Of a stretch of DNA of 64,000 nt, positions 1 through 53,334 are shown in pieces (positions within the stretch are counted from its first letter, which is position 1; each line of letters begins with the position of its first letter). Position numbers and translations under genes: made by a program. The notes beneath the pieces were generated by a model. The model did no database searches, had not been told where the DNA came from, and saw only the letters and a program-made list of their open reading frames with translations. Location: NCBI GenBank assembly GCA_036867785.1, contig CP145417.1:992001-1056000 (forward strand), written 5' to 3'. The stretch is from Plasmodiophora brassicae (taxonomy: Eukaryota).

Positions 1-1227
1 GTCGTGATGCAATGCAGGCATTGCTGACACATCGCTTCAATGTCCTGATTGATCTTGGTCCAGAAGAAACGCTCCGTGATCATCTGCTTGGTTACTTCCG
101 ACGCACGATGACCAGCGCTTGCGCAATGGCCAATGACCAGGATTCGAAGGCGTAGACTCTTGCAGTCTTGATGACAAGGAATAAGAACGGCTTTGCTCTC
201 GTTCTTCCACAGACGATCAGCTTCATCGAAGTACACCCCGTCCTCGATCTTCTCCTCTCGTGACAGAAAGCGTTGCGAATCGCGGATCTCCTTTTCGGTC
301 GGCCAGCTGAATTCAGGATGTTGCCGAGGAGTGACTCGCAAATCGTCCATCTGCATGATGCGCGTTGCTCTACATGACAGTGCGATGCGACCAGCTCCCC
401 ATCGGGTCAGAAGGTCTGCCCATACGTTGTCGGTTCCAGCGATCTCCTTCATCTTGTAGCTGAAGCCTTGTAGATGCAATGCCCATCGCTCTAGCTTCTG
501 AGCCGTATGCTTCTTGATCTCCGAGTTCCGGTCGAAGATGAACGTCAGATTGCGATGATCGCAGTAGAGCAGGAACTCCCGGGATGTCTGCAGTAGGAAA
601 TCACCGCGCTGCGTAGCGTTGATGATCGCGGCTGCCTCCTTCTCGATCGTAGGCCATCTGATCTCTGCACCTGAGAAGCGCTTGCCGTAGAATGCGAGAG
701 GTTCATGTCGTTGTTCGCATACAGGCAGGTTGACGTCTTCCATCGGGATCTGCGTAACCACCGCCGACCATGCTGCATCACTGGCGTCCGTGAACAGGCA
801 GGTCTGATAATCCTCCTTCGGAAACGCCAGCTGAACGTGTTGAATCAAAGCGAAGCGCACGTCCTCGAATGACTTGCTGTGCTGATCGGACCAGCCCAGT
901 GCGTCCAGCGAGACACATGATGGCGATGATGATCGAATGCGCTTGAGCTCCTCCTTGGCAATGTCAAGCAGCTCTTGCAGCGGTCGTACTATACTTGTGT
1001 AGCCGGGTACGTGGGTACGCATCCAGTTGGCCGCCCACAGAAACTGCTGCAGGTCCTTAGCGGTCTTCTGTCACGATCAGGCAAGCTGATGCAACGAACG
1101 CTTTGACGGACTGGCGAAGTCCGTCGCGGGGTTCTCGGTTTATTCCGGACAGTCCTCACATAATAGTCCCCTTCTAGCGATGGGCCTCTGACGGGTCCGG
1201 GATAGAAGGGCAGACGGATGGCCTCTG

Positions 1228-1475
1228 ATGGGTCGCAGACGAACGGACAGGCGGATGAGCAGGCAGACGGGCGGGCAGACGGACGGACAGACGAACGGAC
1301 AGGCGGATGAGACGGGCGGGCAGACGGACGGACAGACGAACGATGAGCAGGCAGACGGGCGGGCAGACGGACGGACAGACGGACGAACGGGCAGACGGAC
1401 GGACAGACGGACGAACGGGCAGACGGACGGATTAGCAGACGGACGGAGAGACGGGCGGGCGGGCAGACGGACGAA
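1228..1475. repeat. Degenerate (GACG/GGAC/GCAG) low-complexity microsatellite inside element 1
   Basis: Runs such as gacggacggacagacgaacgg and gcagacgggcgggcagacgg; almost T-free on the + strand. Confidence 0.85.
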
Positions 1476-1504
1476 CAGGTTTGGTTAGTGACAGCACGTC
1501 GCAA

Positions 1505-3200
1505 CCGAGGCCTTGACGTTGTGCAGGAGATGCCGAGGCGGGATCGACACTGGCGGACGGACGGACGGGTAGAGACAGCAAGCGGTCAGGGAAACACCGG
1601 CGGCCTGGGAGGCAAACAGCACGGCGGGACACGCGCACTCTGGAACTTGGACCAGCTGCGACCGAGGCCTTGACGTTGTGCAGGAGATGCCGAGGCGGGA
1701 TCGGCACGGACGGACGGGAAGAGACAGCAAGTGGTCAGGGGAACACCGGTGGCCTGAGAGGCATACAGCACGGCGGGACACGTACTCTGGGACTTGGACC
1801 AGGTACGACCAAGGCCTTGACGTTCTGCGGGGGATGCCGAGGCGAGATCGGCACGGACGGACGGACGGGCGGGAAGAGACAGCAAGCGGTCAGGGGAACA
1901 CCGGTGGCCTGAGAGGCATACAGCACGGCGGGACACGCACTCTGGGACTTGGACCAGGTACGACCGAGGCCTTGACGTTCTGCGGGGGATGCCGAGGCGA
2001 GATCGGCACGGACGGACGGACGGGCGGGAAGAGACAGCAAGCGGTCAGGGGAACACCTGTGGCCTGAGAGGCATACAGCACGGCGGGACACGCACTCTGG
2101 GACTTGGACCAGGTACGACCGAGGCCTTGACGTTCTGCGGGGGATGCCGAGGCGAGATCGGCACGGACGGACGGGAAGAGACAGCAAGCGGTCAGGGGAA
2201 CACCGGTGGCCTGAGAGGCATACAGCACGGCGGGACACGCACTCTGGGACTTGGACCAGGTACGACCGAGGCCTTGACGTTCTGCGGGGGATGCCGAGGC
2301 GAGATCGGCACGGACGGACGGGAAGAGACAGCAAGCGGTCAGGGGAACACCGGTGGCCTGAGAGGCATACAGCACGGCGGGACACGCACTCTGGGACTTG
2401 GACCAGGTACGACCGAGGCCTTGACGTTCTGCGGGGGATGCCGAGGCGAGATCGGCACGGACGGACGGACGGGCGGGAAGAGACAGCAAGCGGTCAGGGG
2501 AACACCTGTGGCCTGAGAGGCATACAGCACGGCGGGACACGCACTCTGGGACTTGGACCAGGTACGACCGAGGCCTTGACGTTCTGCGGGGGATGCCGAG
2601 GCGAGATCGGCACGGACGGACGGGAAGAGACAGCAAGCGGTCAGGGGAACACCGGTGGCCTGAGAGGCATACAGCACGGCGGGACACGCACTCTGGGACT
2701 TGGACCAGGTACGACCGAGGCCTTGACGTTCTGCGGGGGATGCCGAGGCGAGATCGGCACGGACGGACGGGAAGAGACAGCAAGCGGTCAGGGGAACACC
2801 GGTGGCCTGAGAGGCATACAGCACGGCGGGACACGCACTCTGGGACTTGGACCAGGTACGACCGAGGCCTTGACGTTCTGCGGGGGATGCCGAGGCGAGA
2901 TCGGCACGGACGGACGGGAAGAGACAGCAAGCGGTCAGGGGAACACCGGTGGCCTGAGAGGCATACAGCACGGCGGGACACGCACTCTGGGACTTGGACC
3001 AGGTACGACCGAGGCCTTGACGTTCTGCGGGAGATGCCGAGGCGAGATCGGCACGGACGGACGGGAAGAGACAGCAAGCGGTCAGGGGAACACCGGTGGC
3101 CTGAGAGGCATACAGCACGGCGGGACACGTACTCTGGGACTTCGACCAGGTACCACCGAGGCCTTGACGTTCTGCAGGAGATGCCGAGGCGGGATCGACA
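1505..3200. repeat. Tandem array, 11 full units plus a partial unit of 147/155 bp
   Basis: Unit starts (ccgaggccttgacgtt) at 1505, 1662, 1809, 1964, 2119, 2266, 2413, 2568, 2715, 2862, 3009 and 3156. Length variation comes from an internal (GGAC)n tract. Central units are near-identical and edge units diverged. Confidence 0.95.
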
Positions 3201-5362
3201 GGAGGGTGGTGGGATAGGTAGTCCGTCAAAATGTCACGATCAGGCAAGCTGATGCAACGAACGCTTTGACGGACTGGCGAAGTCCGTCGCGGGGTTCTCG
3301 GTTTATTCCGGACAGTCCTCACATCTTCGGGCGTGGCATGCTGGTCAGCGCCTCGATGCGTTCTGGATCATGCCGAACTCCTTCTCGCGAGTATATCCTG
3401 CCGCACCACTTCAACTTGCGAGCGAACAACGTGCACTTGTTCGGGTTCAGCTTCAGGTTGCGCTCGCGACACCGCTCCAACACTCGTGTCAATTGATGAA
3501 GAAGGTCTTCCTCCGACCTCGCGAATCCGAGTATGTCGTCAATCCAGATGAGCAAATTCTCCTTCATGTCGTCGAAGATAGCAGCCATTCGGGCGTGGAA
3601 CTGAACCGCCGAATTCATTCCCCCTTGAATGCTCCTCGTAGGCGTGAATACAGCGTCGTCCGTCATGAGGCTGAAGATTTCCTGACACTCCTTAGCCAAA
3701 GGCATCAACCAGAAGCCCTTGAAAGCATCAATCGTGAAGAAACAAGTCATGCCGGAGAGCTTGCGCGTAACAGCCTCAACATTCGGCATCGGCCATGCTG
3801 TGGGAACACACCGTGCGTTCACTTGACGAAGATCGACACATAGACGATAGCCATCGCCTTTCGGTTTCTTGACGACTAGGACTGGACTTGCCCATCGCGA
3901 GTTCATGTTCATGTAGACAAGACCGTTCTCCTTCAGCATACTGATCATGTCGTCTAGGAACTCCTTCTGCTTAGGATTGTAGAACCGAGGCTTGCACCGG
4001 TACGGAGTAGCGTCCTGCTTGAGTTGTGTTACCATCGGTTCGACATCGACAGGCTTGTCTTGACCCAGGCGCGTGCGGAATTCGTTCAGATGTCGTCGCA
4101 AGATCAATCGTAGCTTAGCAACTCCTTGACGAGACATGCCATTGAGACGTGCTTGGTGTACCATCCGGTTACAAGAAGCTTCGATCTCGTGAGCATTGAT
4201 CGGTCCCAAGTCAACTTCACTTGACGACGGTTCCATAGAGTCCGACTCTGGTACTGGGTAGTGATCTCCTCGCAACGTTGCCATTCTCGCGGCAATTCGC
4301 CTCACGGTCTCGATACAATCGACATCGACTGCGGCACATCCTGAGAGCGTATCCATCTCGGTGCATCCTGACGCGATGATGTTCTCGAGTTGCTGACGCG
4401 GATTGATGCCGAGAGTCGTTATTTAGCAGATTGTCACCGAACAGGATCACAGGAATCTCGTCGCAAACGTAGTAGGTCACATGATACAGCGTCAAATTGC
4501 CAACTTCGGTCTCCAGGATCGTGATTGGAACTTGCACCGTGCGCGTTATGGTTCCGATAACTTTGCCTTCTGCTGAGGTGACGTCTCGTTGTTGAACGTC
4601 GCGGAACGTGGCCTCTTTCAACTGGACAGCGATATGGCCAGGCATGATGTTGCCTCCGCGGCAGCCGGAATCCAACTCGTACGGAACACGTATGCCTTCC
4701 AGCACTACGCGTTGTAGATCATCGACAGTCTCATTCGCGATTTTGGCCTCAATGTCTTGGGTCGTCAGGCCAAGACTCGCTGGAAGCTTCTTGATCTGCG
4801 ATTCGATCCTTCCTTCCAGGTCGTCATCTGTCAGCAGGTCGACATTGGTCAGGAACAGGTGATTCAACGCGATGCAGGTCAGCTGCGGCGTGGTAAAGCA
4901 GAATCGTATCGCTTGAGGCTTGATCCTCGCGGCTTCCGGACGGTTGCCCTCACGGTCGATCACCACTGCACAATATCGATCGTACTGCTCTTTCAACTTC
5001 AAGATGGATGTGGAGTCCAACTTCGCGACCCGTGGCAGGATGCTGACATCCTCGTCCTTGACACCCATATGCTCGTCCGTGCTGGACGTCGTCTCCGATG
5101 CCATGGCGCAGCGTCTCGACGTGGTGCGGGACGAAGTCAGACGTGTGGGATCAGACAGAGTGCGCACTGTAGTCAGTCTCGAGCCAATATCCCAATGAGC
5201 TTTATCATCCATCCCATCCACGGCGTCGGCCATGCCATCACAGTGGAGCTAAATCCGTGCAGGCCCCCTTTCCTCAGGACAGCAGGACCCCCTCCTCACT
5301 CCTCAGGACAGCAGCATCTTGAGGTCGGGCACGAGACGCTAAATATAGAGCCCCGCTCTACA

Positions 5363-8110
5363 AATCGCACCCTCCTGGCAATGGCTTTCGTCCTGCCAGG
5401 TTGGTCCTTCATTGCATCCTCGTATATCCTCTGTAACAGGTGTACCTTCCTGTTGTACTCAGGGATGGACCTACTCATCCACTGAGTTGCCATAAGGAAT
5501 TGTTGCAAGTCCCTTGCCGTCCTCGGCTGTGGTATCGCCATTAAAGCCTCAATCCTAGCAGGATCGTGCCTTACCCCTTCTGGCGTGAATATCCTTCCAC
5601 AGAACCGAACCTCTGTTGTGAAGAGCTCACACTTCTCCACGTTGAACTTGATGCTGTGCCGTTCGGCTAGCATCAGAGTCCGTTCCAACGTTCGGAACCA
5701 ATCATCCTCCCTTTGGGCATGCCCCATTAGATCATCGATCCATATGATTAGTTTGTGGAACATAAGTTCCCCGAACACCTCAAACATCCTCCCTTGATAC
5801 TGAGGGGCGGAGTTCATTCCCCCCTGCATCGACCTCGTTGGCTTATACACCCCCTTATCTGTCATGAAGGAGAAGATCTCCTGACACGCTTCATCCAGCG
5901 GCATCATCCAGAAGCCTTTGAACGCGTCTAGCTTAAACCAGAACCTCGAGCCTGCCAGGTTCCTCAGTATCGCCTCCTGATGTGGCATAGGCCACGCCAC
6001 GGCGACACATTTGGCATTAACAGCTCTGAGATCAACACAGAACCGCTTTCCGCCCCCTGGCTTCGTCACCACCACCACCGGTGAAGCCCACTTCGCGTTG
6101 TAGTTTTCAACGACTAGGCCATACTTCTTCAATTGGGCGACGAATTCCTCCATGAAAGCACTGTCCTCCATACTGTACTTTCTGGCTCGGCACCTGTAAG
6201 GTTCCGCATCCGGTTTCAGCTCCGTGACAAATGGTGTAACCCTGGCTGGACCATCAGGTCCAATGCTCATACGCCAAACGTCCCTATATCTTCTGACGAG
6301 TTTCCGAAGCGATTTCCCCATCGCTTGCGGTAGGCCATTCCTCAATGCGCGCTCGACCATCCCGTCCATCTCCCTTTCCAGGGAGTCTGTGGAATCGGTT
6401 CCGATCCTCACATCCTCTGTTTCCTCTTCCTCCCCTTCCCAGAGAGGTGGCATCTCGTTTGCCATATTGTGCACTTCATCCATGACGTCATTCCCCTTCT
6501 TCGGCGTGCTCTTAATGAGTACGTCCAGGGCCTTCTTTGGGTGGATACCCAAGTCGTCCAACAGCCTCTCCCCTAGGATTATTTCCTTTTCAGGAATGTC
6601 CCATACTAGGCATCGGCGCCGGCGAGTGATCAGTTCGCCTGCCGTCGTCGTCAGTCCCAGATCCAGTATCATCACATGGTAGGCTGTGTGCTTCGTTTCT
6701 CTGTCTACCAGACAGAACGTTTCCGGCTTCTGGAGGTTCTCCATTGTTAACAATGGGTCCCGCTCCATTAGCTCGCGCGCTATGGTCAATGGCATCAGAA
6801 CGTCAACCGATGTCGCTCCACTGTCCAGAACCCCAACGTAGTCTTCCTCATGTCCGTTTACACGAACGACTACTTGGTCCCCTGTCCTCTGCGCCCCCTC
6901 CGACACTCTTCCTACCACTGGAAGCCATGGGTACTCTGACAAGTCGTCATCTTTATCAGATTTGGCCTTACGGGGTCCATCCCTTCCCGTTGGCCCCTTG
7001 CGGCGATCCTTCAGCAGGTCTGCGACCTGCTTCTTGGTAGGCTTCTTCGGGCAACGAAACGCTGGATGTCCAACCTCGTCACAGTTGAAACATCGCAGGT
7101 CCTTCCGGTGTCGTTTCGTGTCCCGGCCTCCATCGCCTCCTTCATCCGTCTGCGCCCCTCGCTTCTTTGGGGTGGGTTTGACCTTTCCCTTCCCCTTGCC
7201 ATCCTCACGTCCCGGCTCCATGTACAACATCGTCTCCTCATACGATGCAGCCCGTTCCTTCAGCACCCGATAGAATTCCAAAGGGTCCTTCTGGAGATCG
7301 GTCTGGCGCTTCATGACGAGGGTCCGCATGAGCGCTTGTAAACCGGATGGGCGCACAGCACCCAGTAGGTACTTGACCAGGTTCTTCCGTCCCTCGCGGG
7401 ACGTGAAGAGGTCCTGCCACCCGTTGCGCGCGACCAATTCCTCGTACTGCTGCACGAGGTTCACGACCCTTGCCGCTGGTGTGGTGATGGTCAGCTTCAT
7501 CGCCAGCTTCCGCATCTCCCGGTCGATGTTCGCGTCCGTCGAGCGATCCTGCTCGAGATGCCTCTTCATCCAGTCCATCAGGTCGCTCTCCGTCACCCCC
7601 TCGGCGTCCGTGCCGAGTTCCCACTTGCAGATCGCCCTGAGCAGACCGGGGTCGATCATACTCCTCACTGACCGTGGGATCTGGCCCTTGGCATTCGGAT
7701 CGTCCCGGAAGTGATTCCGATACGTCTTCAGCTCGGCCATGAACGTCGTGACGGCCTTGCGGTCCATGCTCTTCAAGGTCGGCGCCTTGTTCATCTGCAG
7801 GACGATCGTTGAGCCTTGCACGCTCTGTCCTTGTTGTCGATCATCGACGTCATCTTCCAGCAGCATCTCCTGCGCGGTGGCCACCATCGCGTCCTTCTTT
7901 GAAACCTTCCCCGAAAGGATGTTCAAGAGATCTCTGTGACGTCCCAACGGTGATGGTATATCAGCCGTGTAGTATAATCGTCTGTGTCCCCGACCTGCAG
8001 CTCCCACGGACGCCGTGCGGACTCCGTGCGCACTCCGTGCATGTCCGTCATTCTTAGGGCGGCCTAGCCGGATCACAGCTATTCTTGTCTTATAGCTTGG
8101 AGCCGGCACA
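5363..8110 (-). mobile_element. Ty3/Gypsy family B copy 1 (5' LTR 7935-8110, gag-PR-RT), interrupted at 5362 by Gypsy A
   Basis: Near-identical reverse complement of 23460-about 26187. 176-bp LTR. CCHC knuckle CFNCDEVGHPAFRC, LDSGA protease, RT. Identity ends at KAIARRVR. Confidence 0.95.
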
Positions 8111-14104: not shown

Positions 14105-14179
14105 CGCTCGAAGGCAGTGACAGACGGGACACCCGTTGCCCGTGGCGCACTCCGCGCGCTACAAGGCTGACACTCGGCA

Positions 14180-14316
14180 GCTGCAACTCGCCCCAGTCAG
14201 ATCTGCACACTGTAGCTGCAACTCGGCCCAGTCAGATCTGCGCACTGTAGCTGCAACGCGCCCCAGTCAGATCTGCACACTGTAGCTGCAATTCGCCCCA
14301 GTCAGATCGGCACACC
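14180..14316. repeat. 35-bp minisatellite, about 4 copies
   Basis: Unit GCTGCAACTCGCCCCAGTCAGATCTGCACACTGTA, upstream of the Whirly-like start. Confidence 0.9.
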
Positions 14317-15070
14317 GCCGCTCTGACGTTGCTGTTCCAATGCCGCGAGGGTACGCCCAGTCAAACCGTCAACCGCTGGCAATCCACCCTGCTGAATGTC
14401 CTAAGTTCAGACCGATGTTCCAAGGTGCCGCGTTCTGGGAGCAGCTCCCGTTTTCCTGGCACACACCTTATGAATGCGGCCTTACTGGACACGACGACGC
14501 CTTGGACAACCAGATTCGCACCTGGTTCGATTCCGATCAGCACTAGGAGGATGGCAATCTCGTTTTCTGTGCTCGCTTGCTGCTCCATTACGATCCGGGA
14601 TGCGGCATCTGGGCCGCGATGAGGTCGTCGCTTTTCGCGACGAACTTCTGCCGACGATGAGGGTCGATCAACGCGCTCTGAATGTCATGTGTTGCTGGTT
14701 GAGCACGGCGCTCCGATCGTATTCCGTAATATCATTCTCTAACAGCAATTGCAGGGCGTGACTCACAAATCTGCGTCACTTGGGGCATCCGTTTGGATCA
14801 CTTGCGCGACAGGTTGTTGAACTTCTTGACATGGAGTTGGGACACGACCTGATCTGCCTTTTCTACGAATATCAGACTGCTGTATAGAAGAAGGCAGTAT
14901 AGATGATCCCCATGCTCACACCAAGCCGGGAAACCGTCTGTACTAACGACATAAACCATTGCGTTTAGATCCGAGACTTCGAGGACGTATGAAAGGTGTG
15001 GACACTCATCGTTAGCTGTGCCTCCGTCAACAAATGCGTCGGCGTGTATTCCTATTGCATACTGTCGCGG

Positions 15071-16420: not shown

Positions 16421-16603
16421 CATGTGGCGGCGTCGACCCGACAGCTTCCCTGCGGGCCCATCAACGTGGCTGAACGGAGCCATCGCGACCGCGCAACGGC
16501 TGAGGGCCAGCCGGGACGATGTCGAGAACTAGGTATGTACGTCGTCAGTAAGCTGATGCCTGATGGACCCGCAGGGTAGCTGTCGGGCCGACGCCACCAC
16601 ATG
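16421..16603. repeat. 43-bp inverted repeat (4 mismatches), 97-bp spacer
   Basis: 16421-16463 is the reverse complement of 16561-16603. Confidence 0.85.
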
Positions 16604-18164
16604 GGCCCGCTCGCAGCGGCGAGTCCATCAGCTTGCCATCAGCTTACTGGCGACGTCGTTCTCGATATCATCCCGGCGGGCACTCAGCCGTCGCACGGTC
16701 GCGATGGCTCCGTTCAGACACGTTTTCTCCTCTTTGTGTTTCCAGGGGCCACTCTTGCACTCCATTAGGGATATCTTGATCGGCAGTTGGCGACGGCCAT
16801 CCCCTTCGAAGCCCTCGCGCCGGTCACTACTTTCATAGCGTCCTCCGGTGTCGTACTCGTTGTCGCCAATGCCGCTGCCGTGTGGCACGCTCAATGCGCC
16901 TCCCCGCAAGGGTGCCCGTCTGGTTCCGAGTCCTGCGACGACCCTGGCGCTCCTATCCTCCCTCGCACTTGTTTCTTGGTTGTCCCACTCCGGCGGCGGC
17001 GCCGCCCGGTTCCCTGACAACCTCCTTGATCTCTTCCACGTCCAGCCCGAGCGCTGCGACCGTTGCATCCGTGGCCCCGTCGACCGCTTCTAGCCGCGCC
17101 AAGATCACGTCCAGCGTCGTCTGGATTCTGACCATATCCTCGACCTTGACCCGGATGGTATGCGCGCCTGTGCCATCACCACCACCAACGGTCTGCGCGC
17201 CTGCGCCAACACCGCCGTTCTCGGTCGCCATCAACCCGAATTGTTGTCGAGATTGTGTGTGCTGAGCACGCGATCTGGGGATTGCGTTAGACACGTGCAG
17301 GCGCTAACCTCGCACCGACAGCAGGACCGAAAGCCTGTATGTATACGATCTCGACAACAATGACGGCCGCTGGACAGCCGCCACGGATCCCGTCACCGAG
17401 GTCGGCAGTGGGAAGTGCGCCGCAGTTCGAAACGTGTCTAAGCTCATCCATAAGCGAGACGGGTCAACCGTACGTCGTCGTCCTGAGTTCAGAAATATAG
17501 ACACGACGTTTGCTAGCATGATTATACACGCACGCCTGCTACCAGGGTGCCGTTTAACGTGCATAGACGCGCGTTGTGTCCGTTGTGATGACTGCTTGTA
17601 GTACCGGGCCGGCAACACATCTCGATATAGGCAGGACTTCTACAGTCATACCAGCCAGCATCGCTATTTTCATCAGGGCCCAGGCAGCGGGCAGGTTGGG
17701 TTGTCGCCGAGCGTGCCCGACAAATACCTACATACCTCTTGGTGTGCCGCTAATTTCGGATGGCGGCAAGGCCACTTGAGGGTGGCTCGGCAAGGAGCGC
17801 CGCGCCAGACGGCCGACAGGAACGGCGCGGTAATCCGATCCGTTGCCGGCGCTGGACAGTCCGTGGCGGCGTCCTTGCACGGCGTGGCGGAACTTGAGGG
17901 CCGCCCGGGATCAACCCGCCGATCCGGTCCACCGCGATGGCAAGTGGCAACCGGCCCGATCCAACTCGTGGCCGTCTAGCCATCGTCGACAACCTCCACG
18001 CGATTTAACCAGGTCGAATGCTGTTGCCGTCGACCGGCTGGCGTCCTCGCTGCATGATATACAGGCCAACTGGGCTGCTCACTGCAGTGACATGTGTTAT
18101 ATTAATATACAGTGATGATGGCATTGCTAGTATGTCGTACGCTAAGAGGCCGTCGGCTGGAATA

Positions 18165-20703: not shown

Positions 20704-22638
20704 TGTCATGAGTCATCTCCACCACCATGACTCACGCCACTCACCTTCCGGCATCTAGCCACCTTCCGGCACCAAGCCACGTTCCGAGACCAAGGCCTTC
20801 ACCAGCCGCGCCCTGGTCCTCAGTCAGCATTCTCATGTCTACTCGATACACCGCGTGATCGGTAGTCATCGCACACTGTCGTGCACCAGCGTTGTCAGGT
20901 AGTTCTCCACATTTTTTTTTGCGATGAACCAACCGACACGAAGGTGGAGAAAAGGGCTCCTAACCATATCCTCTTCCGCGCGATCATTGAGGTCCGACAA
21001 GCACGGCCTCTCCAACAAGCAACAGCGCGATGCACGACACGCTAGATACCCGCATGCGCCCGCTGACTCCATGCAGGATATCGTCAAGCGCCGTCATCAA
21101 CACGACCCCCGGTTCAGAACCGTACCATCCGCGCCGGACGCAAATCCACCGGCCGGTACCCGACATCATCGGGGAGACTTTCATCCACATGGAAGTCGCT
21201 CTTCCGGCACAACAACCGGCACCATTCCAGCCGTCGCCCCCGTTCCGCATTCACCGTACTGGGTACCTCTGCCCGCGAATCTCCCGAGGTTCCACGAGTT
21301 CTATTGTTCAACTTCCAGACGCAACTGTCTACAAGCGCAGATCTTCCGTCAGCCACATCTGCACGTCGTTCACGATCCCTAGTGAACGGCGCCTCTTACG
21401 ACCCTCCTAGCCTGCCCTGGGTAGAGTTTTCTACAAAGTCTTCTCCAGCGGCATTACCGGCTCCACGCCACCCTCATCATCCGCATCAATGGGTCTCAGC
21501 CGTCTCCGGCGCTGAACATCCCAACGTATATGGCAACGACATCGCCATCGTCCTCGGTAACGACATCACCGACGGTCCTACCGGCTCCACGCCACCCTCA
21601 TCATCCGCATCAATTGGTCTCAGCCGTCTCCGGCGCTGAACATCCCAACGTATATGGCAACGACATCGCCATCGTCCTCGGTAACGACATCACCGACGGT
21701 CCTACCGGCTCCACGCCACCCTCATCATCCGCATCAATCGGTCTCAGCCGTCTCCGGCGCTGAACATCCCAACGTATATGGCAACGATATCGCCATCGTC
21801 CATGGTAACGACATCACCGACGGTCCTACCGGCTCCACGCCACCCTCATCATCTGTATCAATCGGTCTCATCGACCTCCACTCAACGACTTCAACCGGCT
21901 CCTCGCCACCCTCATCATCCGCATCAATCAGTCTCAGCCCAGGAATGTGCCACTCCGGCTCTGAACGTCCCAGCGTATATGGCAACGTCATCGGCATCGC
22001 CCACGGTAACGACATCACCGACTGCCATCGAACAGACCTAGCGGCATCACCGCCACGAATGCACATCCACTCGTTTTCTTGACGTCCACGGCATTGATAT
22101 CGCCGCCCAAGCGCGGACAAGCAAATTTACACTCAACAATGGCCCAGAAGTGTGCCATCTCCGACACTGAACGTGTCAACATCCAGGTCCGAAGCAGCTC
22201 CCGACACTTCTCTCACCCGCAACTCCAGAACCCTGTCACAGATTCTGCGAGTCCGAAACAAATATGAGCCGCGTCTCCAGCCAGATCGCACAGTTCTCAA
22301 GTTGCGAGCAAGCCCAATCACATCAAGCCGCACATCACGCGCACCATCAAGATTCACTTGACCCGCAACCTCATCAAGCCGCTCATCACGCGCACCTTCC
22401 ACCCCCACATCCCTTTTTGGCGGGGGATGATGTCATGAGTCATCTCCACCACCATGACTCACGCCACTCACCTTCCGGCATCTAGCCACCTTCCGGCACC
22501 AAGCCACGTTCCGAGACCAAGGCCTTCACCAGCCGCGCCCTGGTCCTCAGTCAGCATTCTCATGTCTACTCGATACACCGCGTGATCGGTAGTCATCGCA
22601 CACTGTCGTGCACCAGCGTTGTCAGGTAGTTCTCCACA
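20704..22638 (+). mobile_element. Non-autonomous LTR element 2 with internal tandem repeats
   Basis: Identical 208-bp TG...CA direct repeats 20704-20911 and 22431-22638. 5-bp TSD GTACC at 20699-20703 and 22639-22643. PPT GGCGGGGGATGA before the 3' LTR. No intact ORF. Confidence 0.93.
21456..22022. repeat. 124-bp tandem repeat (3 full units plus degenerate partial copies) inside element 2
   Basis: Equivalent ATGGCAACGA positions at 21530, 21654 and 21778; diverged copy near 21979. Confidence 0.9.
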
Positions 22639-23459: not shown

Positions 23460-26400
23460 TGTGCCGGCTCCAAGCTATAAGACAAGAATAGCTGTGATCC
23501 GGCTAGGCCGCCCTAAGAATGACGGACATGCACGGCGTCCGTGGGAGCTGCAGGTCGGGGACACAGACGAATATACTACACGGCGGATATACCATCACCG
23601 TTGGGACGTCACAGAGATCTCTTGAACATCCTTTCGGGGAAGGTTTCAAAGAAGGACGCGATGGTGGCCACCGCGCAGGAGATGCTGCTGGAAGATGACG
23701 TCGATGATCGACAACAAGGACAGAGCGTGCAAGGCTCAACGATCGTCCTGCAGATGAACAAGGCGCCGACCTTGAAAAGCATGGACCGCAAGGCCGTCAC
23801 GACGTTCATGGCCGAGCTGAAGACGTATCGGAATCACTTCCGGGACGATCCGAACGCCAAGGGCCAGATCCCGCGGTCAGTGAGGAGTATGATCGACCCC
23901 GGTCTGCTCAGGGCGATCTGCAAGTGGGAACTCGGCAAGGACGCCGAGGGGGTGACGGAGAGCGACCTGATGGACTGGATGAAGAGGCATCTGGAGCAGG
24001 ATCGCTCGACGGACGCGAACATCGACCGGGAGATGCGGAAGCTGGCGATGAAGCTGACCATCACCACACCAGCGGCAAGGGTCGTGAACCTCGTGCAGCA
24101 GTACGAGGAATTGGTCGCGCGCAACGGGTGGCAGGACCTCTTCACGTCCCGCGAGGGACGGAAGAACCTGGTCAAGTACCTACTGGGTGCTGTGCGCCCA
24201 TCCGGTTTACAAGCGCTCATGCGGACCCTCGTCATGAAGCGCCAGACCGATCTCCAGAAGGACCCTTTGGAATTCTATCGGGTGCTGAAGGAACGGGCTG
24301 CATCGTATGAGGAGACGATGTTGTACATGGAGCCGGGACGTGAGGATGGCAAGGGGAAGGGAAAGGTCAAACCCACCCCGAAGAAGCGAGGGGCGCAGAC
24401 GGATGAAGGAGGCGATGGAGGCCGGGACACGAAACGACACCGGAAGGACCTGCGATGTTTCAACTGTGACGAGGTTGGACATCCAGCGTTTCGTTGCCCG
24501 AAGAAGCCTACCAAGAAGCAGGTCGCAGACCTGCTGAAGGATCGCCGCAAGGGGCCAACGGGAAGGGATGGACCCCGTAAGGCCAAATCTGATAAAGATG
24601 ACGACTTGTCAGAGTACCCATGGCTTCCAGTGGTAGGAAGAGTGTCGGAGGGGGCGCAGAGGACAGGGGACCAAGTAGTCGTTCGTGTAAACGGACATGA
24701 GGAAGACTACGTTGGGGTTCTGGACAGTGGAGCGACATCGGTTGACGTTCTGATGCCATTGACCATAGCGCGCGAGCTAATGGAGCGGGACCCATTGTTA
24801 ACAATGGAGAACCTCCAGAAGCCGGAAACGTTCTGTCTGGTAGACAGAGAAACGAAGCACACAGCCTACCATGTGATGATACTGGATCTGGGACTGACGA
24901 CGACGGCAGGCGAACTGATCACTCGCCGGCGCCGATGCCTTGTATGGGACATTCCTGAAAAGGAAATAATCCTAGGGGAGAGGCTGTTGGACGACTTGGG
25001 TATCCACCCAAAGAAGGCCCTGGACGTACTCATTAAGAGCACGCCGAAGAAGGGGAATGACGTCATGGATGAAGTGCACAATATGGCAAACGAGATGCCA
25101 CCTCTCTGGGAAGGGGAGGAAGAGGAAACAGAGGATGTGAGGATCGGAACCGATTCCACAGACTCCCTGGAAAGGGAGATGGACGGGATGGTCGAGCGCG
25201 CATTGAGGAATGGCCTACCGCAAGCGATGGGGAAATCGCTTCGGAAACTCGTCAGAAGATATAGGGACGTTTGGCGTATGAGCATTGGACCTGATGGTCC
25301 AGCCAGGGTTACACCATTTGTCACGGAGCTGAAACCGGATGCGGAACCTTACAGGTGCCGAGCCAGAAAGTACAGTATGGAGGACAGTGCTTTCATGGAG
25401 GAATTCGTCGCCCAATTGAAGAAGTATGGCCTAGTCGTTGAAAACTACAACGCGAAGTGGGCTTCACCGGTGGTGGTGGTGACGAAGCCAGGGGGCGGAA
25501 AGCGGTTCTGTGTTGATCTCAGAGCTGTTAATGCCAAATGTGTCGCCGTGGCGTGGCCTATGCCACATCAGGAGGCGATACTCAGGAACCTGGCAGGCTC
25601 GAGGTTCTGGTTTAAGCTAGACGCGTTCAAAGGCTTCTGGATGATGCCGCTGGATGAAGCGTGTCAGGAGATCTTCTCCTTCATGACAGATAAGGGGGTG
25701 TATAAGCCAACGAGGTCGATGCAGGGGGGAATGAACTCCGCCCCTCAGTATCAAGGGAGGATGTTTGAGGTGTTCGGGGAACTTATGTTCCACAAACTAA
25801 TCATATGGATCGATGATCTAATGGGGCATGCCCAAAGGGAGGATGATTGGTTCCGAACGTTGGAACGGACTCTGATGCTAGCCGAACGGCACAGCATCAA
25901 GTTCAACGTGGAGAAGTGTGAGCTCTTCACAACAGAGGTTCGGTTCTGTGGAAGGATATTCACGCCAGAAGGGGTAAGGCACGATCCTGCTAGGATTGAG
26001 GCTTTAATGGCGATACCACAGCCGAGGACGGCAAGGGACTTGCAACAATTCCTTATGGCAACTCAGTGGATGAGTAGGTCCATCCCTGAGTACAACAGGA
26101 AGGTACACCTGTTACAGAGGATATACGAGGATGCCATGAAGGACCAACCTGGCAGGACGAAAGCCATTGCCAGGAGGGTGCGATTGTGCAAATATGGATG
26201 GTCACCCGAACATGCGCTGGCATTCGAGAAACTGAAGATGGCAGTGGCGGACACGGTCCAACTAGCGTACCCGCGAAAGGACCGGATCCAATGCCTATTC
26301 TCAGATGCAAATGAGGTTAACAGCGCGGCGGTAGTCACACAGATTCCGCCTGAGGACTTGGGTAAACCAGTGCATGGGCAGCGACATGAACCGCTGGGTT

Positions 26401-28702
26401 TCGTCGGACACAAGTTCGCGGGCCCAGAGCGGAACTGGTCCACGGTGGAGAAGGAAGGGTTCGCGATCAAGGATGGGATTGACAAACTGGACTATCTCGT
26501 TACAACCAACGAGCAGTTTCGTTTGTTTACCGATCATAGGAATCTCGTGAGGATATTCTCACCAACGGACGTGTCAAAGCCAACGGCGCAGAAACTGCAA
26601 CGATGGGCACTGGACATACAGAGGGTCAACTACGTCATTGAACACATTGCGGGGGAGGACAATGTGTGGTCGGATCTTATGACGCGGTGGGGTGCACCGG
26701 ACGGTGGGCCTGATGACCAGCACCTAGAGGTACGCACGATCAGGAGGATAACGCTTCAAATTGAGGACGGATATCGGGTACGGCCGTTACAAAGGAAGGA
26801 ATTCCAATGGCCGACCGTGGACGAAATCCGTAAGGCTCAGAGGAAATGGCTCAGAGGAACGAAACGACCGAAGAATGGTGATGATCTCTTCGTCACAGGG
26901 AAGGGACAGGTGATCATACCAGACGAATGCAACGAGCTGAAGCTGCAGCTATGCGCTATTGCTCATGCGGGCGGAAACAGTGGGCATCTAGGACTGAAGG
27001 CCTCGTTGAGGAAGTTGGGGGAGTTCTGCCATTGGGCACACTGCGATGAGGACATGAGGACGTTCTGCAACGCGTGTTTGAACTGTCTACCGACAAGGGG
27101 CGGGGTTAGGATTCCCAGGCCATTGGGAACAGCTGTTCATGGTGTTAGGCCGAATCAGGTGATTCACTTGGATTGGCTATACATGATGGCGGCTCAGAAG
27201 GGCGGAAGACATGATCTGCAATGGAACCTGATAATCAGGGATGATCTGTCTGGCATGGTCAAGATTACTCCTGACCATACACCCAATGCGGAAACCACTG
27301 TAGAGGCACTGCTCGAATGGAGGGCTATCTTCGGAACGTTTGAGTTGATGGTGTCAGACATGGCGTCTTGCTTTCTGGCAAACGTTGTGAAGGAACTGGC
27401 GCGTCGATGTGGATTTGCTCATCACCCGACTGTTGCCTATGGGCATTACAGTAATGGATCAATTGAGGTGATCAACAGGAACTACTTGCAACTAGTCAGA
27501 GCACTTCTGTCTGAATTGCAGTGGGACAAATACGATTGGCCATGGTTGAACCACAACATTGAACACACGATCAATCACAGGTCGCAGGCGCGTACCAACG
27601 GGAATGCGCCAGTGACAGTGATGATGGGACGTCAACCAGACAACCCGCTGAAGCAAGTGTTCAAGAGGCCAGGGGATGAGAAGTATGGGGAAGCTACACT
27701 CTCAAAGGAGCATATTCAGGAGCTAGTCATGCAATTGCAGACGTCGCTGAATGAAATGCACAAGGGAGCAGTGCAGCAATCGAAGAAAATCCGAGCCGTA
27801 CACAGGAAGAGGAGCGACGCGTACCGACGAGCAACTGCACCGAACTTTCAGATCGGTGACTATGTACTCATCGGATTGCCTGAACCGGGTAAGGTTCCGG
27901 GCAAGAAGCTCTTTATGAAGTGGCGGGGCCTATATCAAATAACTGATAGCCACGAGAACTACACCTACGAGGTGAGGAATATGTTCAATGAGACGGACAC
28001 TCGAACCGTTCACGGGGACCGCGTTCGCCTCTATGAACATGGCAAAGTGAATGCCACTGAGGAACTGAAGCGACAGATGGATTATGACAATGAGCGTTTC
28101 GCCATTGAAGTCTTCAAGGACTGCAGGCACAGTCCGGAGACAGGGGAATTGGAATTGTTGATCGGATGGAAGGGTTTCTCTGAAGCGGAGGATTCATGGG
28201 AGCCAATCTGCAGGTTGGCGATGGATGTACCGAAGCTGGTGAAGGCACATGCCGCCAGGATGAGGAAGGAGAAACATCACCTTGCTGATGAGGTTAAGGA
28301 GTTACTTAAGGCGGAAGGAGTCCAGTAGGCTAGTCATGCTTTTTTCCCGGATGCGCGCTGGGTTATTTTAATGCCGACGGCCATGTGACGACAGAAGCCA
28401 AAACTGTGTTCTACGAAGATTGAGACTTAATTATGTTAATTAGACTATATTAAGGAGAAGACATGATTAGGATACACCACCACTGAAGACACCTGCAAGG
28501 AGGAGCATTTCGTTGAAGGAGGGGAATGTGCCGGCTCCAAGCTATAAGACAAGAATAGCTGTGATCCGGCTAGGCCGCCCTAAGAATGACGGACATGCAC
28601 GGAGTGCGCACGGAGTCCGCACGGCGTCCGTGGGAGCTGCAGGTCGGGGACACAGACGAATATACTACACGGCGGATATACCATCACCGTTGGGACGTCA
28701 CA
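23460..28702 (+). mobile_element. Full-length Ty3/Gypsy chromovirus family B copy 2
   Basis: 5' LTR 23460-23613 (154 bp) and 3' LTR 28527-28702 (176 bp), TG...CA. 4-bp TSD GTTC. PPT GAAGGAGGGGAA. Confidence 0.97.
23661..28328 (+). CDS. Intact single-ORF gag-pol polyprotein (CCHC, protease, RT, RNase H, integrase, chromodomain)
   Basis: CFNCDEVGHPAFRC; LDSGA; LDAFKGF/WIDD; FSDAN..EKE..TDHRNL; H-H-C-C zinc motif and HLDW..VSD..SIE; IGWKGFSEAEDSWEP. First ATG after the LTR is 23661. Confidence 0.95.
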   Translation: MVATAQEMLLEDDVDDRQQGQSVQGSTIVLQMNKAPTLKSMDRKAVTTFMAELKTYRNHFRDDPNAKGQIPRSVRSMIDPGLLRAICKWELGKDAEGVTESDLMDWMKRHLEQDRSTDANIDREMRKLAMKLTITTPAARVVNLVQQYEELVARNGWQDLFTSREGRKNLVKYLLGAVRPSGLQALMRTLVMKRQTDLQKDPLEFYRVLKERAASYEETMLYMEPGREDGKGKGKVKPTPKKRGAQTDEGGDGGRDTKRHRKDLRCFNCDEVGHPAFRCPKKPTKKQVADLLKDRRKGPTGRDGPRKAKSDKDDDLSEYPWLPVVGRVSEGAQRTGDQVVVRVNGHEEDYVGVLDSGATSVDVLMPLTIARELMERDPLLTMENLQKPETFCLVDRETKHTAYHVMILDLGLTTTAGELITRRRRCLVWDIPEKEIILGERLLDDLGIHPKKALDVLIKSTPKKGNDVMDEVHNMANEMPPLWEGEEEETEDVRIGTDSTDSLEREMDGMVERALRNGLPQAMGKSLRKLVRRYRDVWRMSIGPDGPARVTPFVTELKPDAEPYRCRARKYSMEDSAFMEEFVAQLKKYGLVVENYNAKWASPVVVVTKPGGGKRFCVDLRAVNAKCVAVAWPMPHQEAILRNLAGSRFWFKLDAFKGFWMMPLDEACQEIFSFMTDKGVYKPTRSMQGGMNSAPQYQGRMFEVFGELMFHKLIIWIDDLMGHAQREDDWFRTLERTLMLAERHSIKFNVEKCELFTTEVRFCGRIFTPEGVRHDPARIEALMAIPQPRTARDLQQFLMATQWMSRSIPEYNRKVHLLQRIYEDAMKDQPGRTKAIARRVRLCKYGWSPEHALAFEKLKMAVADTVQLAYPRKDRIQCLFSDANEVNSAAVVTQIPPEDLGKPVHGQRHEPLGFVGHKFAGPERNWSTVEKEGFAIKDGIDKLDYLVTTNEQFRLFTDHRNLVRIFSPTDVSKPTAQKLQRWALDIQRVNYVIEHIAGEDNVWSDLMTRWGAPDGGPDDQHLEVRTIRRITLQIEDGYRVRPLQRKEFQWPTVDEIRKAQRKWLRGTKRPKNGDDLFVTGKGQVIIPDECNELKLQLCAIAHAGGNSGHLGLKASLRKLGEFCHWAHCDEDMRTFCNACLNCLPTRGGVRIPRPLGTAVHGVRPNQVIHLDWLYMMAAQKGGRHDLQWNLIIRDDLSGMVKITPDHTPNAETTVEALLEWRAIFGTFELMVSDMASCFLANVVKELARRCGFAHHPTVAYGHYSNGSIEVINRNYLQLVRALLSELQWDKYDWPWLNHNIEHTINHRSQARTNGNAPVTVMMGRQPDNPLKQVFKRPGDEKYGEATLSKEHIQELVMQLQTSLNEMHKGAVQQSKKIRAVHRKRSDAYRRATAPNFQIGDYVLIGLPEPGKVPGKKLFMKWRGLYQITDSHENYTYEVRNMFNETDTRTVHGDRVRLYEHGKVNATEELKRQMDYDNERFAIEVFKDCRHSPETGELELLIGWKGFSEAEDSWEPICRLAMDVPKLVKAHAARMRKEKHHLADEVKELLKAEGVQ

Positions 28703-40395: not shown

Positions 40396-40521
40396 TACAT
40401 AAAGCACGACGGTCGGAAGCAGGAGACGCCCCCGAGCGAGGTTGAGTCACGCCCCGTCCCGCGACCGGAGGACGATGGTTGGTCGGTGGCAGCGTGCGCA
40501 TTCGCGTTTGGCGCTGTACAC

Positions 40522-48081: not shown

Positions 48082-48428
48082 GGTCGACAGCTATGTTTGG
48101 GATTCGAGAACCAACGGCACCAAACGCCCGGACGGATTCAGCTTTGGGCGCGAGTCACAGGAGAGATCACAGCTCAGCTGGCAGACGACCTCCCCAATCG
48201 CACTGCAGTCGCCGTCTCTGGGACTACGTGCCCATCCTGTGCTGCAGAGACGACTCTGCTTCCCCCCAATCACCCGGTCCACCAATTGCCACACCGGTCA
48301 TACAGACCCTGGTGGATCTGCATAGCGAACCGCACGGTGAAACGTCGAGTCCACGCGAGGCCCGTAACGAACCGCGGTATGCGACGCTGGACCGTTACAC
48401 GGGTTGCTCAACAGGGCATTTGGCGTCA

Positions 48429-51400: not shown

Positions 51401-53334
51401 AGACTCATAATGAAGCGTCGAACGGCCTTCTTGCCGTTAAAGCGGAAAGGCATCATGTCGACGAAGTTCGGTTGATATTGAAGGATCTGAGGGAGCTGAG
51501 TGAAGACTGCCGCGCTGTCATCGACTCGTACCAATTCCGGCCAACGGTAAATGACTGAAACCTGATCGTTGATCTGCGCGCCTGTAGTGAATTTGGATGT
51601 GTGTTTGCAGCCGCCGAAAGAGTCGCACGCGCAGGCCGCCGAACGCACGGCGCGTCGGGATGCCGCGCGCGCACGCGCGCTTGCTCGTATCCAGCATCAG
51701 AGCGAAACGTTCTCAAACACCCACCGCGAACACCTCGTTGTCGTTGACGAAGCCGCGCAACAGCAGCGCTCCCACCTGCACTCGTGCATCTGTCAGTCTG
51801 CACGCCATCTGCCGTGTGGCACGTTCGCTGACCGCGTTCCATTCAGTGTGTCGCTCGAACCATTCGCAGGAGGAGATGGGCCTTCTTGCCTGGATTGGAC
51901 GGTGCGAGATCCGCAGTCTCCTGGAAGCGCCTGAACGGCGCTGTCGTAAGCGTCCCCGAGTTCCGCGCCCGAGCGATCGTTTCGTTCGGTATTCACGCGA
52001 CTGCGGGCATGCCATGCATAGTTCCTGCTACGCCAGCTATGTCTCCAGCCTGCTGGGTAGGAAATCGTCCCGACAGCACTACGAAGGGGAGTTCGTGGTC
52101 AATGTGCGTCGTTGGATTGTCGGTATGGATGCGGGGGGCGCTGACGTTTTCCCAGATCTCCGTTGGCGAAATTACGTGCCCGCTCTGCAAATGCCACGCG
52201 AACGTCCTGCTGCCGATTGATCCGCCGACATCGGAAGTGTCAGCGGAATTTGACGACGTTCGTGATGACGGCGGCACCAGCGATGAACAGTGGTTTGAGA
52301 CGTACAGTTCCGCGCTTCTGTCGAGGCTGTCCGACAAGGCCGGTCGGCTTACGCCCGCACCACTGTTATCGCCTGGCTCTGAGGCGCTCTACATCCAGTT
52401 GAACGACCGCTTCCGGTCGTTCTCGAACGACGACAACGCCGTCGTCCGCCTTGTCGCATCGGATATCGGGATCGCCGAGATCCAGTGGCGCGCGCGAACC
52501 TACGCTCCCGATAAGGACCTGGACCACATCCGCCTCCTGATTCGCAGTGCCAGCGTGGTCGTGCGCCGCCAGCTGTTTGCTGGCACGCTGTCCCTGACCC
52601 CGTTCGAAATCGACGCTAAGCAGTGCACCACCATCGACTGCATCGCTCGATATGCTATTCTGCTCCTGGCTATCGGCCTCACGAACGAGCAAGCGCTCTG
52701 CGTTATCCGACGACTGATTCGTGTCGGTTGTCGTACTGCGCCTTCATTAGCGTTCGCGCGGCAAGCGTCCATCCTCTGCTGTACCATGCCTGGCAACGCC
52801 ATTCTATTGCCCGCTTCGGACGACGAGCTGGCCGACGTCCTCGGCGTGGCTGTGCCGTTGGAAACGGCGCTAACCGTGCCGTATCTGTCGCCATTGCCGA
52901 CCGAGTTCCTGGAGTTGTTCAACAAGCACGCCTTCTCGGTTTGCGTCGAGTGTGGGAAGAGGCCGAAGACGGCAGCGCTGTGCCTGGTCTGTGGCGATCT
53001 GCTGTGTGCCGGCAGGGACTGCTCCGTTCCAAGTCTGGGCGGTGGTGCGCTCTCCGTTCACACCTCTCTGTACTGTGGAGAGCAAGCCGCATTCCTACTC
53101 TTATCGCAGTGCTCCGTCGTCCTCATCGCGAACGGGTATTCGTGCGACTTCATCTCGCCGTACCTGGACGCGCACGGCGAAGAAGACGTCGGCCTGCAAC
53201 GAGGCCGGCCGCTGTTCCTGGACGCTGACCGGTGGCAGCGAATCCAACAGCTGGTGACGAACCTGGAGATCGGGTCGTTCGTGTCCAGGAAGCGGTCGTA
53301 TCAGCACGACCTCTTCCCCAGGAACCATTTCTGA
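48429..53334 (+). CDS. UBR-box N-recognin E3 ligase (UBR1/PRT6-like), multi-exon
   Basis: UBR box (CGTCGVDPTCIQC..CDCGD), ClpS-like LFNDDVHSF, WVRNG, CGHAMH/CPLC RING pieces, C-terminal SPYLDAHGEEDVGLQRGRPL. Start codon uncertain. Confidence 0.92.

What the first reader, a model, noticed from the sequence alone, without database searches (positions are those of the whole stretch)
3220..3323. Tf1-like self-priming signature and a competing hairpin in the LTR of element 1
Seen: no TGG tRNA PBS. On the minus strand the 11 nt lying 1 nt after the 5' LTR (TTTGACGGACT, 3230-3220) are perfectly complementary to AGTCCGTCAAA inside the LTR (3275-3265). An AATAAA starts 32 nt upstream of that LTR segment, and an 8-bp hairpin (GACGGACT/AGTCCGTC) can sequester it. 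Known: S. pombe Tf1 primes reverse transcription with the first 11 nt of its own transcript. Inference: the transcript starts near 3275 and self-primes; in the 3' LTR copy the hairpin would mask the primer sequence.
Basis: partly seen in the sequence, partly recalled or inferred. Interest (0 to 1): 0.75.

Follow-up and report, generated by a model that had tools for sequence, protein, structure and literature searches.

The report
Self-priming signature in miniature retrotransposon
A 2.3-kb gene-less LTR retrotransposon of the clubroot parasite Plasmodiophora brassicae has no tRNA primer site, and the 11 bases next to its 92-base LTR pair perfectly with a stretch inside that LTR, so it probably starts reverse transcription with the 5' end of its own RNA, as yeast Tf1 does, though this has not been shown.

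Summary
On the minus strand, TTTGACGGACT (3230-3220), 1 nt after the LTR, is perfectly complementary to AGTCCGTCAAA (3275-3265) inside it. No TGG-type PBS is present. AATAAA starts 32 nt upstream of the LTR segment, and an 8-bp hairpin can form.

"Element 1" is a 2,255-bp non-autonomous LTR element (1069-3323). It has identical 92-bp TG..CA LTRs, a 5-bp duplication (TCTTC) and an interior of tandem repeats. It sits in the pol gene of a Ty3/gypsy element, and contigs from public runs show the empty site. The host is Plasmodiophora brassicae.

A perfect match of 11 nt or more at such a boundary occurs at 67 of 127,766 window positions. Three unrelated LTR families here carry an A/T box at LTR positions 16-23. 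AATAAA therefore reads better as a TATA box, which puts the start site near position 49, where the complementary stretch begins.

Weak points:
- No transcript ends could be seen.
- Duplex energy is unexceptional.
- The LTR is nearly invariant in the contigs, so covariation could not be tested.
- No autonomous partner was found.

Verdict: Tf1-like self-priming is the best reading (about 0.6). It would be a new member of a known kind, of moderate interest.

The parts
3232..3323 (-). 5' LTR, 92 nt, TGTGAGG...GTGACA
   Evidence: Identical to the copy at 1069-1160. TG..CA ends read.
1069..1160 (-). 3' LTR, 92 nt, 100% identical to the 5' LTR
3324..3328 (.). Target-site duplication TCTTC (+ strand), upstream copy in the element's orientation
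   Evidence: Contigs in runs X1 and X17 read ...TTAGCGG + TCTTCGGG with a single TCTTC, which is the empty site (loose end before 3324).
1064..1068 (.). Target-site duplication TCTTC, downstream copy
3302..3307 (-). AATAAA at LTR positions 17-22; proposed TATA-like box
   Evidence: It is the only A/T-only hexamer in the LTR. B has TATATTTA at 16-23 and C has TATAAG at 17-22. A/T-only hexamers occur at 0.0022 per position in the window.
3281..3288 (-). GACGGACT, U3-side arm of the 8-bp hairpin; same 8 nt as the PBS core
   Evidence: A variant with one extra base in this arm was seen in X17 (table 4).
3265..3275 (-). AGTCCGTCAAA, LTR positions 49-59; proposed self-primer and 5' end of the transcript
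   Evidence: 11 of 11 complementary to 3230-3220. Starts 32 nt after the start of the A/T box.
3237..3256 (-). Predicted small hairpin between primer and PBS (core AUCAG 3253-3249 / CUGAU 3243-3239)
   Evidence: Present in the minimum-energy and centroid folds. Prediction only.
3220..3231 (-). T followed by TTTGACGGACT: primer-binding site without TGG
1167..1175 (-). AGAAGGGGA, polypurine-tract candidate, 6 nt before the 3' LTR
   Evidence: A sister copy in contigs of X1 and X17 reads AGAAGAGGA at the same place, a purine-for-purine change (loose end behind 3323).
1235..1478 (.). GACGGA-type microsatellite (periods 4, 12 and 28) in the interior
1504..3197 (.). 147-nt tandem array, 11.3 copies, filling most of the interior
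   Evidence: No Rfam match.
1..5362 (-). Host element B (Ty3/gypsy), with the insertion lying just after its RT domain. RT is at about 3867-3399; RNase H and the integrase zinc domain are at 1068-3; it runs off the window.
   Evidence: Pfam RVT_1, RT_RNaseH and Integrase_H2C2. Sequence read.

Best explanation
The stretch 1069-3323 (minus strand) is a young, non-autonomous, TRIM-like LTR retrotransposon of Plasmodiophora brassicae. It most likely initiates reverse transcription by Tf1-type self-priming. The proposed steps are as follows. (1) RNA polymerase II starts about 30 nt downstream of the AATAAA box, at LTR position 49 (window 3275). (2) The first 11 nt of the RNA fold back onto the PBS just beyond the LTR (3230-3220), closing a 56-nt stem-loop that holds a small U5 hairpin. 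(3) The RT/RNase H of an unidentified autonomous partner cuts after nt 11 and extends the primer. (4) A purine run (AGAAGGGGA) primes the plus strand. (5) Integration makes a 5-bp duplication. Shown here: the LTR structure, the duplication, the empty site, the multiple genomic contexts, the absence of a tRNA-type PBS and the 11-nt complementarity. Inferred: the start site, the cleavage, the trans-acting partner and the purine tract. The 8-bp hairpin would exist only at the 3' end of the RNA, because its first arm would lie in U3. It may mask the 3' copy of the primer sequence or help 3'-end formation, but that role is speculative.
For: The element is a real LTR element. It has 92-nt TG..CA repeats at 100% identity, a 5-bp TSD and an empty site in contigs, and the LTR is joined to other flanks in other contigs. 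No TGG follows the LTR, the window holds no tRNA gene, and 900-5500 has no Rfam match. The 11-of-11 complementarity sits 1 nt after the LTR, a match found at 67 of 127,766 null positions. The other orientation gives at most 6 nt, at offset 34. An RNA started at 3275 pairs nt 1-12 with the PBS: -23.7 kcal/mol, z -3.94, 0 of 200 shuffles as good. The same pairing beats the U3 hairpin when both are present. An A/T box lies at the same LTR position in three unrelated LTR families, which puts a TATA-type start site at about position 47-53; the complementary stretch begins at 49. The length of 11 nt equals that of Tf1, whose first 11 bases pair with the PBS and are cut off between bases 11 and 12 (PMC7175516, passages). 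In self-priming the PBS is recopied from the primer at each cycle (established mechanism, recalled), so a perfect match is expected in a copy with identical LTRs. The only variant in the LTR and PBS (3198-3323) across the four runs lies outside both the primer and the PBS.
Against: No transcript 5' end was seen, because every available run is contigs. Duplex energy is ordinary for this GC-rich genome: 19.9% of random 20-mers do as well. There are no compensatory changes, because the LTR is invariant apart from one insertion. No autonomous element with this LTR or PBS was found. Element C shows no such signature; B's LTR end cannot be set in this window, and its best complement is 9 nt. The purine tract is 6 nt away from the LTR instead of touching it. 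With a start at position 49, R plus U5 is only 44 nt, and no poly(A) signal lies downstream of the start.
Confidence: 0.6

Rival explanations
1. The complementarity is a chance or neutral inverted repeat, and reverse transcription is primed by something else, such as an internal tRNA fragment or another small host RNA.
For: Energy is unexceptional. About 8 loci in the 64-kb window have perfect inverted repeats of 11 bp or more with short loops; this is my estimate from the 67 null positions. The other LTR families here (C and element 2) also lack TGG and lack a significant LTR complement. Unconventional priming without self-complementarity therefore seems to exist in this genome.
Against: The position-specific chance is 5e-4. 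The match begins exactly where a TATA-spaced start site would fall. The PBS-sense motif occurs nowhere else in the interior. No host RNA candidate is known.
Confidence: 0.2
2. The stem is a structural element of the leader, like the U5-IR and U5-leader stems of retroviruses. It shapes the initiation complex, but the RNA starts further upstream and the stem is not the primer.
For: The fold forms whether or not the RNA begins at 3275 (114-nt fold). Retroviral leaders use such stems (recalled; title of Lin and Levin 1998, seen in the reference lists).
Against: There is no room for a separate PBS: the 3' arm begins 1 nt after the LTR, and the bases after it hold no TGG. An upstream start would leave less than 30 nt between the A/T box and the start.
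Confidence: 0.1
3. The element is oriented on the + strand, so the 11-mer lies before the 3' LTR, near a G-rich purine tract (GGAGGGTGGTGGGATAGG), and has nothing to do with priming.
For: A purine-rich run lies 10 nt upstream of the LTR on the + strand. The TG..CA ends are symmetrical.
Against: In this orientation the A/T box would sit at LTR position 71, too late for a start site inside the LTR. The bases after the + strand 5' LTR have neither TGG nor an LTR complement longer than 6 nt. B and C share the box position only in the minus reading.
Confidence: 0.07

Closest known systems
Tf1 and Tf2 of Schizosaccharomyces pombe (self-primed Ty3/gypsy chromoviruses), and Tj1 of S. japonicus
   Same: No tRNA PBS. 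The PBS next to the 5' LTR is complementary to an LTR-internal stretch taken to be the RNA's 5' end. The duplex is 11 nt, as in Tf1 (PMC7175516 passages; PMC4600332 passages). A stem-loop is predicted between primer and PBS. The TSD is 5 bp; that Tf1 also makes 5 bp is recalled.
   Different: This element has no gag or pol, so it depends on a partner. Its LTR is 92 nt and R plus U5 is about 44 nt. The host is a rhizarian, not a fungus. Start site and cleavage are not shown. Clade membership by RT or IN cannot be asked of an element without genes.
Predicted self-priming lineages elsewhere: Tcn1 of Cryptococcus, the Tcn1 clade in mosses, TAR (Houba, Osr-1) Ty1/copia in plants, and vertebrate sushi
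   Same: These rest on the same kind of sequence-only inference. [quoted passage not shown]
   Different: Those are autonomous elements placed by phylogeny. Their per-element lists are in Additional files 1 and 5 of that paper, which I did not open.
TRIMs (terminal-repeat retrotransposons in miniature) and other non-autonomous LTR elements
   Same: Short LTRs, PBS and PPT, no coding capacity, a 5-bp TSD and insertion into other elements. The unique interior is only about 130 nt once the arrays are set aside.
   Different: The total length is 2,255 bp because a 147-nt satellite and a microsatellite have expanded inside it. The PBS is not tRNA-type. The one TRIM paper that mentions self-priming (bivalves, PMC6934838 passage) proposes no mechanism.

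Membership tests
Tf1-type self-priming LTR retrotransposons (by mechanism) | No PBS complementary to a tRNA 3' end (TGG...) | tested here: met
   The bases after the LTR are TTTTGACGGACTACC, with no TGG. The window holds no tRNA gene. Host tRNAs were not available, so internal-fragment priming was not excluded.
Tf1-type self-priming LTR retrotransposons (by mechanism) | PBS beside the 5' LTR is complementary to a stretch inside the LTR | tested here: met
   11 of 11 at offset 1, pairing with LTR positions 49-59. Null: 67 of 127,766 positions.
Tf1-type self-priming LTR retrotransposons (by mechanism) | That stretch is the first bases of the transcript | not testable with these tools
   All 24 runs listed are kept as contigs, which show no RNA ends. 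The only support is indirect: the A/T box starts 32 nt upstream.
Tf1-type self-priming LTR retrotransposons (by mechanism) | RNase H cleavage after the primer (between nt 11 and 12 in Tf1) | not testable with these tools
   Needs biochemistry or cDNA intermediates.
Tf1-type self-priming LTR retrotransposons (by mechanism) | Stem-loop between primer and PBS (U5-IR-like) | tested here: inconclusive
   A 5-7-bp hairpin appears in the minimum-energy and centroid folds. There is no covariation to test it, and the Tf1 structure papers were not held.
Tf1/sushi clade of chromoviruses (by phylogeny) | RT, RNase H and IN cluster with Tf1/sushi; chromodomain integrase | not testable with these tools
   The element has no ORF with a Pfam domain, and its partner is unknown. 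Chromovirus C in the same window has no self-priming signature.
LTR retrotransposon (non-autonomous, TRIM-like) | Identical direct LTRs with TG..CA ends, a TSD, and a precise empty site | tested here: met
LTR retrotransposon (non-autonomous, TRIM-like) | No coding capacity; small size (TRIMs are usually about 1 kb or less, recalled) | tested here: inconclusive
   The interior is tandem repeats and holds no gene, but the total of 2,255 bp exceeds the usual TRIM size because of the arrays.

The most novel reading that the evidence does not exclude
This would be a minimal self-priming retroelement. About 105 nt (a 92-nt LTR plus a 12-nt PBS) would carry promoter, primer, primer site and integrase ends. 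A U3/R hairpin would act as a switch, leaving the primer free at the 5' end of the RNA but masking its copy at the 3' end, or bridging the A/T box to the cleavage site. It would be the first self-primed retroelement in Rhizaria and the first non-autonomous one, spreading a 147-nt satellite through the genome of a crop parasite.
Probability: 0.2. Interest if true: 0.55.

Novelty: new member of a known kind. Interest (0 to 1): 0.35.

Why it matters
Self-priming has been shown experimentally only in fission-yeast elements and is predicted in fungi, vertebrates and some plants. A case in a plasmodiophorid would widen its range to Rhizaria. It would also show that a gene-less element can carry the whole cis-acting signal in about 100 nt, which is useful as a minimal substrate for studying how RT/RNase H recognises an RNA-RNA duplex. 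For the parasite itself, LTR elements dominate the repeats and more than half of structural variants overlap transposable elements (preprint 10.64898/2026.10.14.759018, passages). A recently active family with identical LTRs that carries a satellite is therefore relevant to how its TE-rich regions change. I found nothing in print on priming of P. brassicae elements or on self-primed TRIMs. Supplementary repeat tables of PMC11191646 and of the preprint were not seen and may already list this family.

Tried and rejected
- **Own genome:** none is held, so no genome-wide copy survey or search for a partner was possible.
- **Metagenome scan with both LTR termini:** 0 hits.
- **Metagenome scan with the primer and PBS pair and a variable gap:** 10 loci. 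All are unrelated hairpins in contigs of 26-53% GC, with no similarity to the LTR. The only blastn hit to the window was one 55-nt, 76% match from L002 to the microsatellite at 1367-1421.
- **Viral contigs scan with the U5 24-mer:** 0 hits.
- **Earlier findings of this scan:** nothing by sequence, place or words.
- **Sequencing runs:** 24 listed, all kept as contigs. The four laid (X1, X2, X3, X17) cannot show a start site, strand or expression, and their RNA or DNA nature is a guess. Summed depths are not copy numbers. Because the parasite grows only inside plants, the four coded organism labels may be infected host tissue, so I do not count them as cross-species conservation.
- **Other searches of the window:** no tRNA gene; no Rfam family in 900-5500. 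The bacterial promoter and terminator scan found nothing and does not apply to a eukaryote.
- **RNAduplex energy as a test:** it does not discriminate. In that call the row for element A used wrong LTR bounds and is disregarded.
- **Self-priming signature in the other LTR families:** C has no complement of 7 nt or more in 47 nt. Element 2 has 8 nt at offset 8, which is matched or beaten at 1,684 of 25,506 null positions. B has a 9-nt pair, but its LTR end is unknown. None of these is evidence.
- **Papers:** the Levin and Lin papers on Tf1 structure and the Esnault and Levin review were not held, so detail on Tf1's RNA structure is recalled or taken from reviews.
- **Protein atlas on the UBR gene:** it gave no taxon.

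Full report
**Observation.** On the minus strand the sequence reads ...GATCGTGACA | T | TTTGACGGACT ACC.... The 11-mer at 3230-3220 is the exact reverse complement of AGTCCGTCAAA at 3275-3265. AATAAA lies at 3307-3302, starting 32 nt before 3275. GACGGACT (3288-3281) and AGTCCGTC (3275-3268) form an 8-bp hairpin with a 5-nt loop. No TGG follows the repeat.

**What the element is.**
- The repeat occurs twice in the window, at 1069-1161 and 3232-3324, at 100% identity.
- Trimmed to TG..CA it is 92 nt, and it is flanked by TCTTC at 1064-1068 and 3324-3328.
- Between the two copies lie 74 unique bases, a GACGGA-type microsatellite (1235-1478), a 147-nt tandem array of 11.3 units (1504-3197), and 34 bases that hold the PBS. 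There is no gene.
- The 2,255-bp unit interrupts the pol reading frame of a Ty3/gypsy element, B, just after its RT domain. The RNase H and integrase zinc domains continue below 1068.
- B itself begins at 5362, where a copy (A, 8110-5363) of chromovirus C (23460-28702) is cut off. The nesting is therefore three deep, all on the minus strand.
- Contigs of two public runs (X1, X17) read straight from ...TTAGCGG into TCTTCGGG with one TCTTC, which is the empty site.
- Other contigs join the LTR to different flanks.
- One sister copy has a diverged interior next to the 3' LTR.

This is therefore a real, mobile, non-autonomous LTR retroelement. Its identical LTRs mark the insertion as recent.

**Host.** An ORF at 48368-51475 is 100% identical to a protein that NCBI names PBRA_008722 of Plasmodiophora brassicae. 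This parasite's genome is reported as 11-14% repeats, dominated by Gypsy and Copia LTR elements (PMC11191646 and preprint 10.64898/2026.10.14.759018, passages).

**Is the complementarity more than chance?**
- I slid a 92-nt frame over both strands of the window. A perfect complement of 11 nt or more, beginning 0-3 nt after the frame, occurs at 67 of 127,766 positions, this element's own included.
- With about four LTR families and two orientations to look at, the corrected chance is a few per thousand.
- The local microsatellite does not explain the match. In the element's orientation the PBS-sense motif GACGGAC occurs only three times (both LTR arms and the PBS), while the opposite sense occurs 30 times.
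- Against this, duplex energy is ordinary: -18.1 kcal/mol, matched or beaten by 19.9% of 2,000 random 20-mers in this 62% GC window. The signal lies in the contiguity and position of the match, not its stability.

**Orientation and start site.**
- The other orientation offers no TGG and at most a 6-nt complement, at offset 34.
- Three unrelated LTR families in the window carry an A/T box at the same place: AATAAA at 17-22 here, TATATTTA at 16-23 in B and TATAAG at 17-22 in C. A/T-only hexamers occur at only 0.0022 per position.
- I therefore read AATAAA as the LTR's TATA-like box rather than a poly(A) signal. That fixes the minus orientation and predicts a start near LTR position 47-53. The complementary stretch begins at 49.
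- This is indirect evidence. No raw RNA reads were on offer.

**Folding.**
- An RNA from 3275 to 3210 pairs nt 1-12 with the PBS (11 Watson-Crick pairs and one G-U) around a small hairpin, AUCAG/CUGAU: -23.7 kcal/mol, z -3.94, 0 of 200 shuffles as good.
- In a 114-nt RNA that also holds the U3 arm, the primer-PBS pairing still wins.
- In the 3' LTR alone the 8-bp hairpin forms, but that fold is not exceptional: z -1.65, with 12 of 200 shuffles as good.

**Variation.**
- In the four runs laid, no base substitution was reported across the LTR and PBS (3198-3323).
- The one variant is an extra base behind 3283, in the U3-side arm of the hairpin, at depth 106 of 415 in X17.
- On the other side of the element, the sister copy keeps the purine run (AGAAGGGGA against AGAAGAGGA) 6 nt before the LTR, which is consistent with a polypurine tract.

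[quoted passage not shown] Tj1 shows the same arrangement by sequence and is active (PMC4600332, passages). In Tf2 the choice of start site decides whether the self-primer is in the RNA at all (PMC5341516, passages). Self-priming is predicted for 12% of surveyed plant elements, in the Tcn1 and TAR lineages (PMC6317226, passages). The present element meets the sequence-level criteria: no tRNA PBS, a PBS that pairs with an LTR-internal stretch, and the same 11-nt length. The functional criteria (start site, cleavage) could not be tested. Clade membership cannot be asked of an element without genes.

**Neighbours.** The two other families whose LTR ends can be set in the window lack a TGG-type PBS, and neither shows a significant LTR complement:
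- C has none of 7 nt or more in 47 nt.
- Element 2 at 20704-22638 has 8 nt, reached at 6.6% of null positions.

B's LTR end cannot be set, so its PBS could not be assessed. Self-priming is therefore not a general explanation for this genome's odd primer sites, and the autonomous partner of the element remains unknown.

**Searches elsewhere.** These gave nothing usable: two metagenome scans, one viral scan, Rfam, tRNA and earlier notes of this scan.

**Verdict.** The best reading, at about 0.6, is a Tf1-like self-primed, trans-mobilised miniature LTR element. It would be a new member of a known kind in a new host group. Transcript 5'-end mapping and a copy survey in the published assemblies would settle it.

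Noticed in passing
window 20704-22638 (+): A second gene-less LTR element: identical 208-nt LTRs (TGTCATG...CTCCACA), a 5-bp TSD GTACC, the purine tract GGCGGGGGATGA touching the 3' LTR, a run of nine T after the 5' LTR with no TGG PBS, and an interior of 124-nt tandem repeats (21435-21879). It has the same 'LTR - satellite - LTR' build as the element studied. Its 8-nt LTR complement is not significant.
   Followed up: partly
window 3302-3307 (-), 5340-5347 (-), 23476-23481 (+): Three unrelated LTR families carry an A/T box at LTR positions 16-23 (AATAAA, TATATTTA, TATAAG), which suggests very short U3 regions with a fixed TATA position in this organism's LTR promoters.
   Followed up: partly
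window 23614-23660 (+) and 20912-20931 (+): The two other LTR families whose LTR ends can be set here (C and element 2) have no TGG-type PBS. The 47 nt after C's 5' LTR have no LTR complement of 7 nt or more, and its first 20 nt give an unusually weak duplex (-8.2 kcal/mol). How these elements are primed is unexplained.
   Followed up: partly
window 1-8110 (-): Three-deep nesting in one orientation: the miniature element lies in pol of gypsy element B (starts at 5362), and B lies in element A (8110-5363). A is 98.8% identical over 2,748 nt, and 100% over 2,656 nt, to chromovirus C at 23460-26185 on the other strand.
   Followed up: partly
window 28527-28702 vs 23460-23613 (+): The two LTRs of chromovirus C differ in length (176 and 154 nt). 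The 3' LTR has 22 extra bases in a short repeated GCACGGAG-like motif.
   Followed up: no
window 1504-3197: The 147-nt repeat has word depths tens to roughly a thousand times those of the flanking single contigs in the four runs laid. It is probably an abundant satellite beyond this element, but summed contig depth is not a copy number.
   Followed up: no
window 40396-45192 (+): A 1,598-aa open frame with no Pfam match, holding several internal direct repeats of 189-300 nt (41978-44138).
   Followed up: no
window 14144-14353 and 16463-16724: A 35-nt tandem repeat (5 units), and a 72-nt inverted repeat with arms 118 nt apart and 88% complementary. Neither was examined.
   Followed up: no
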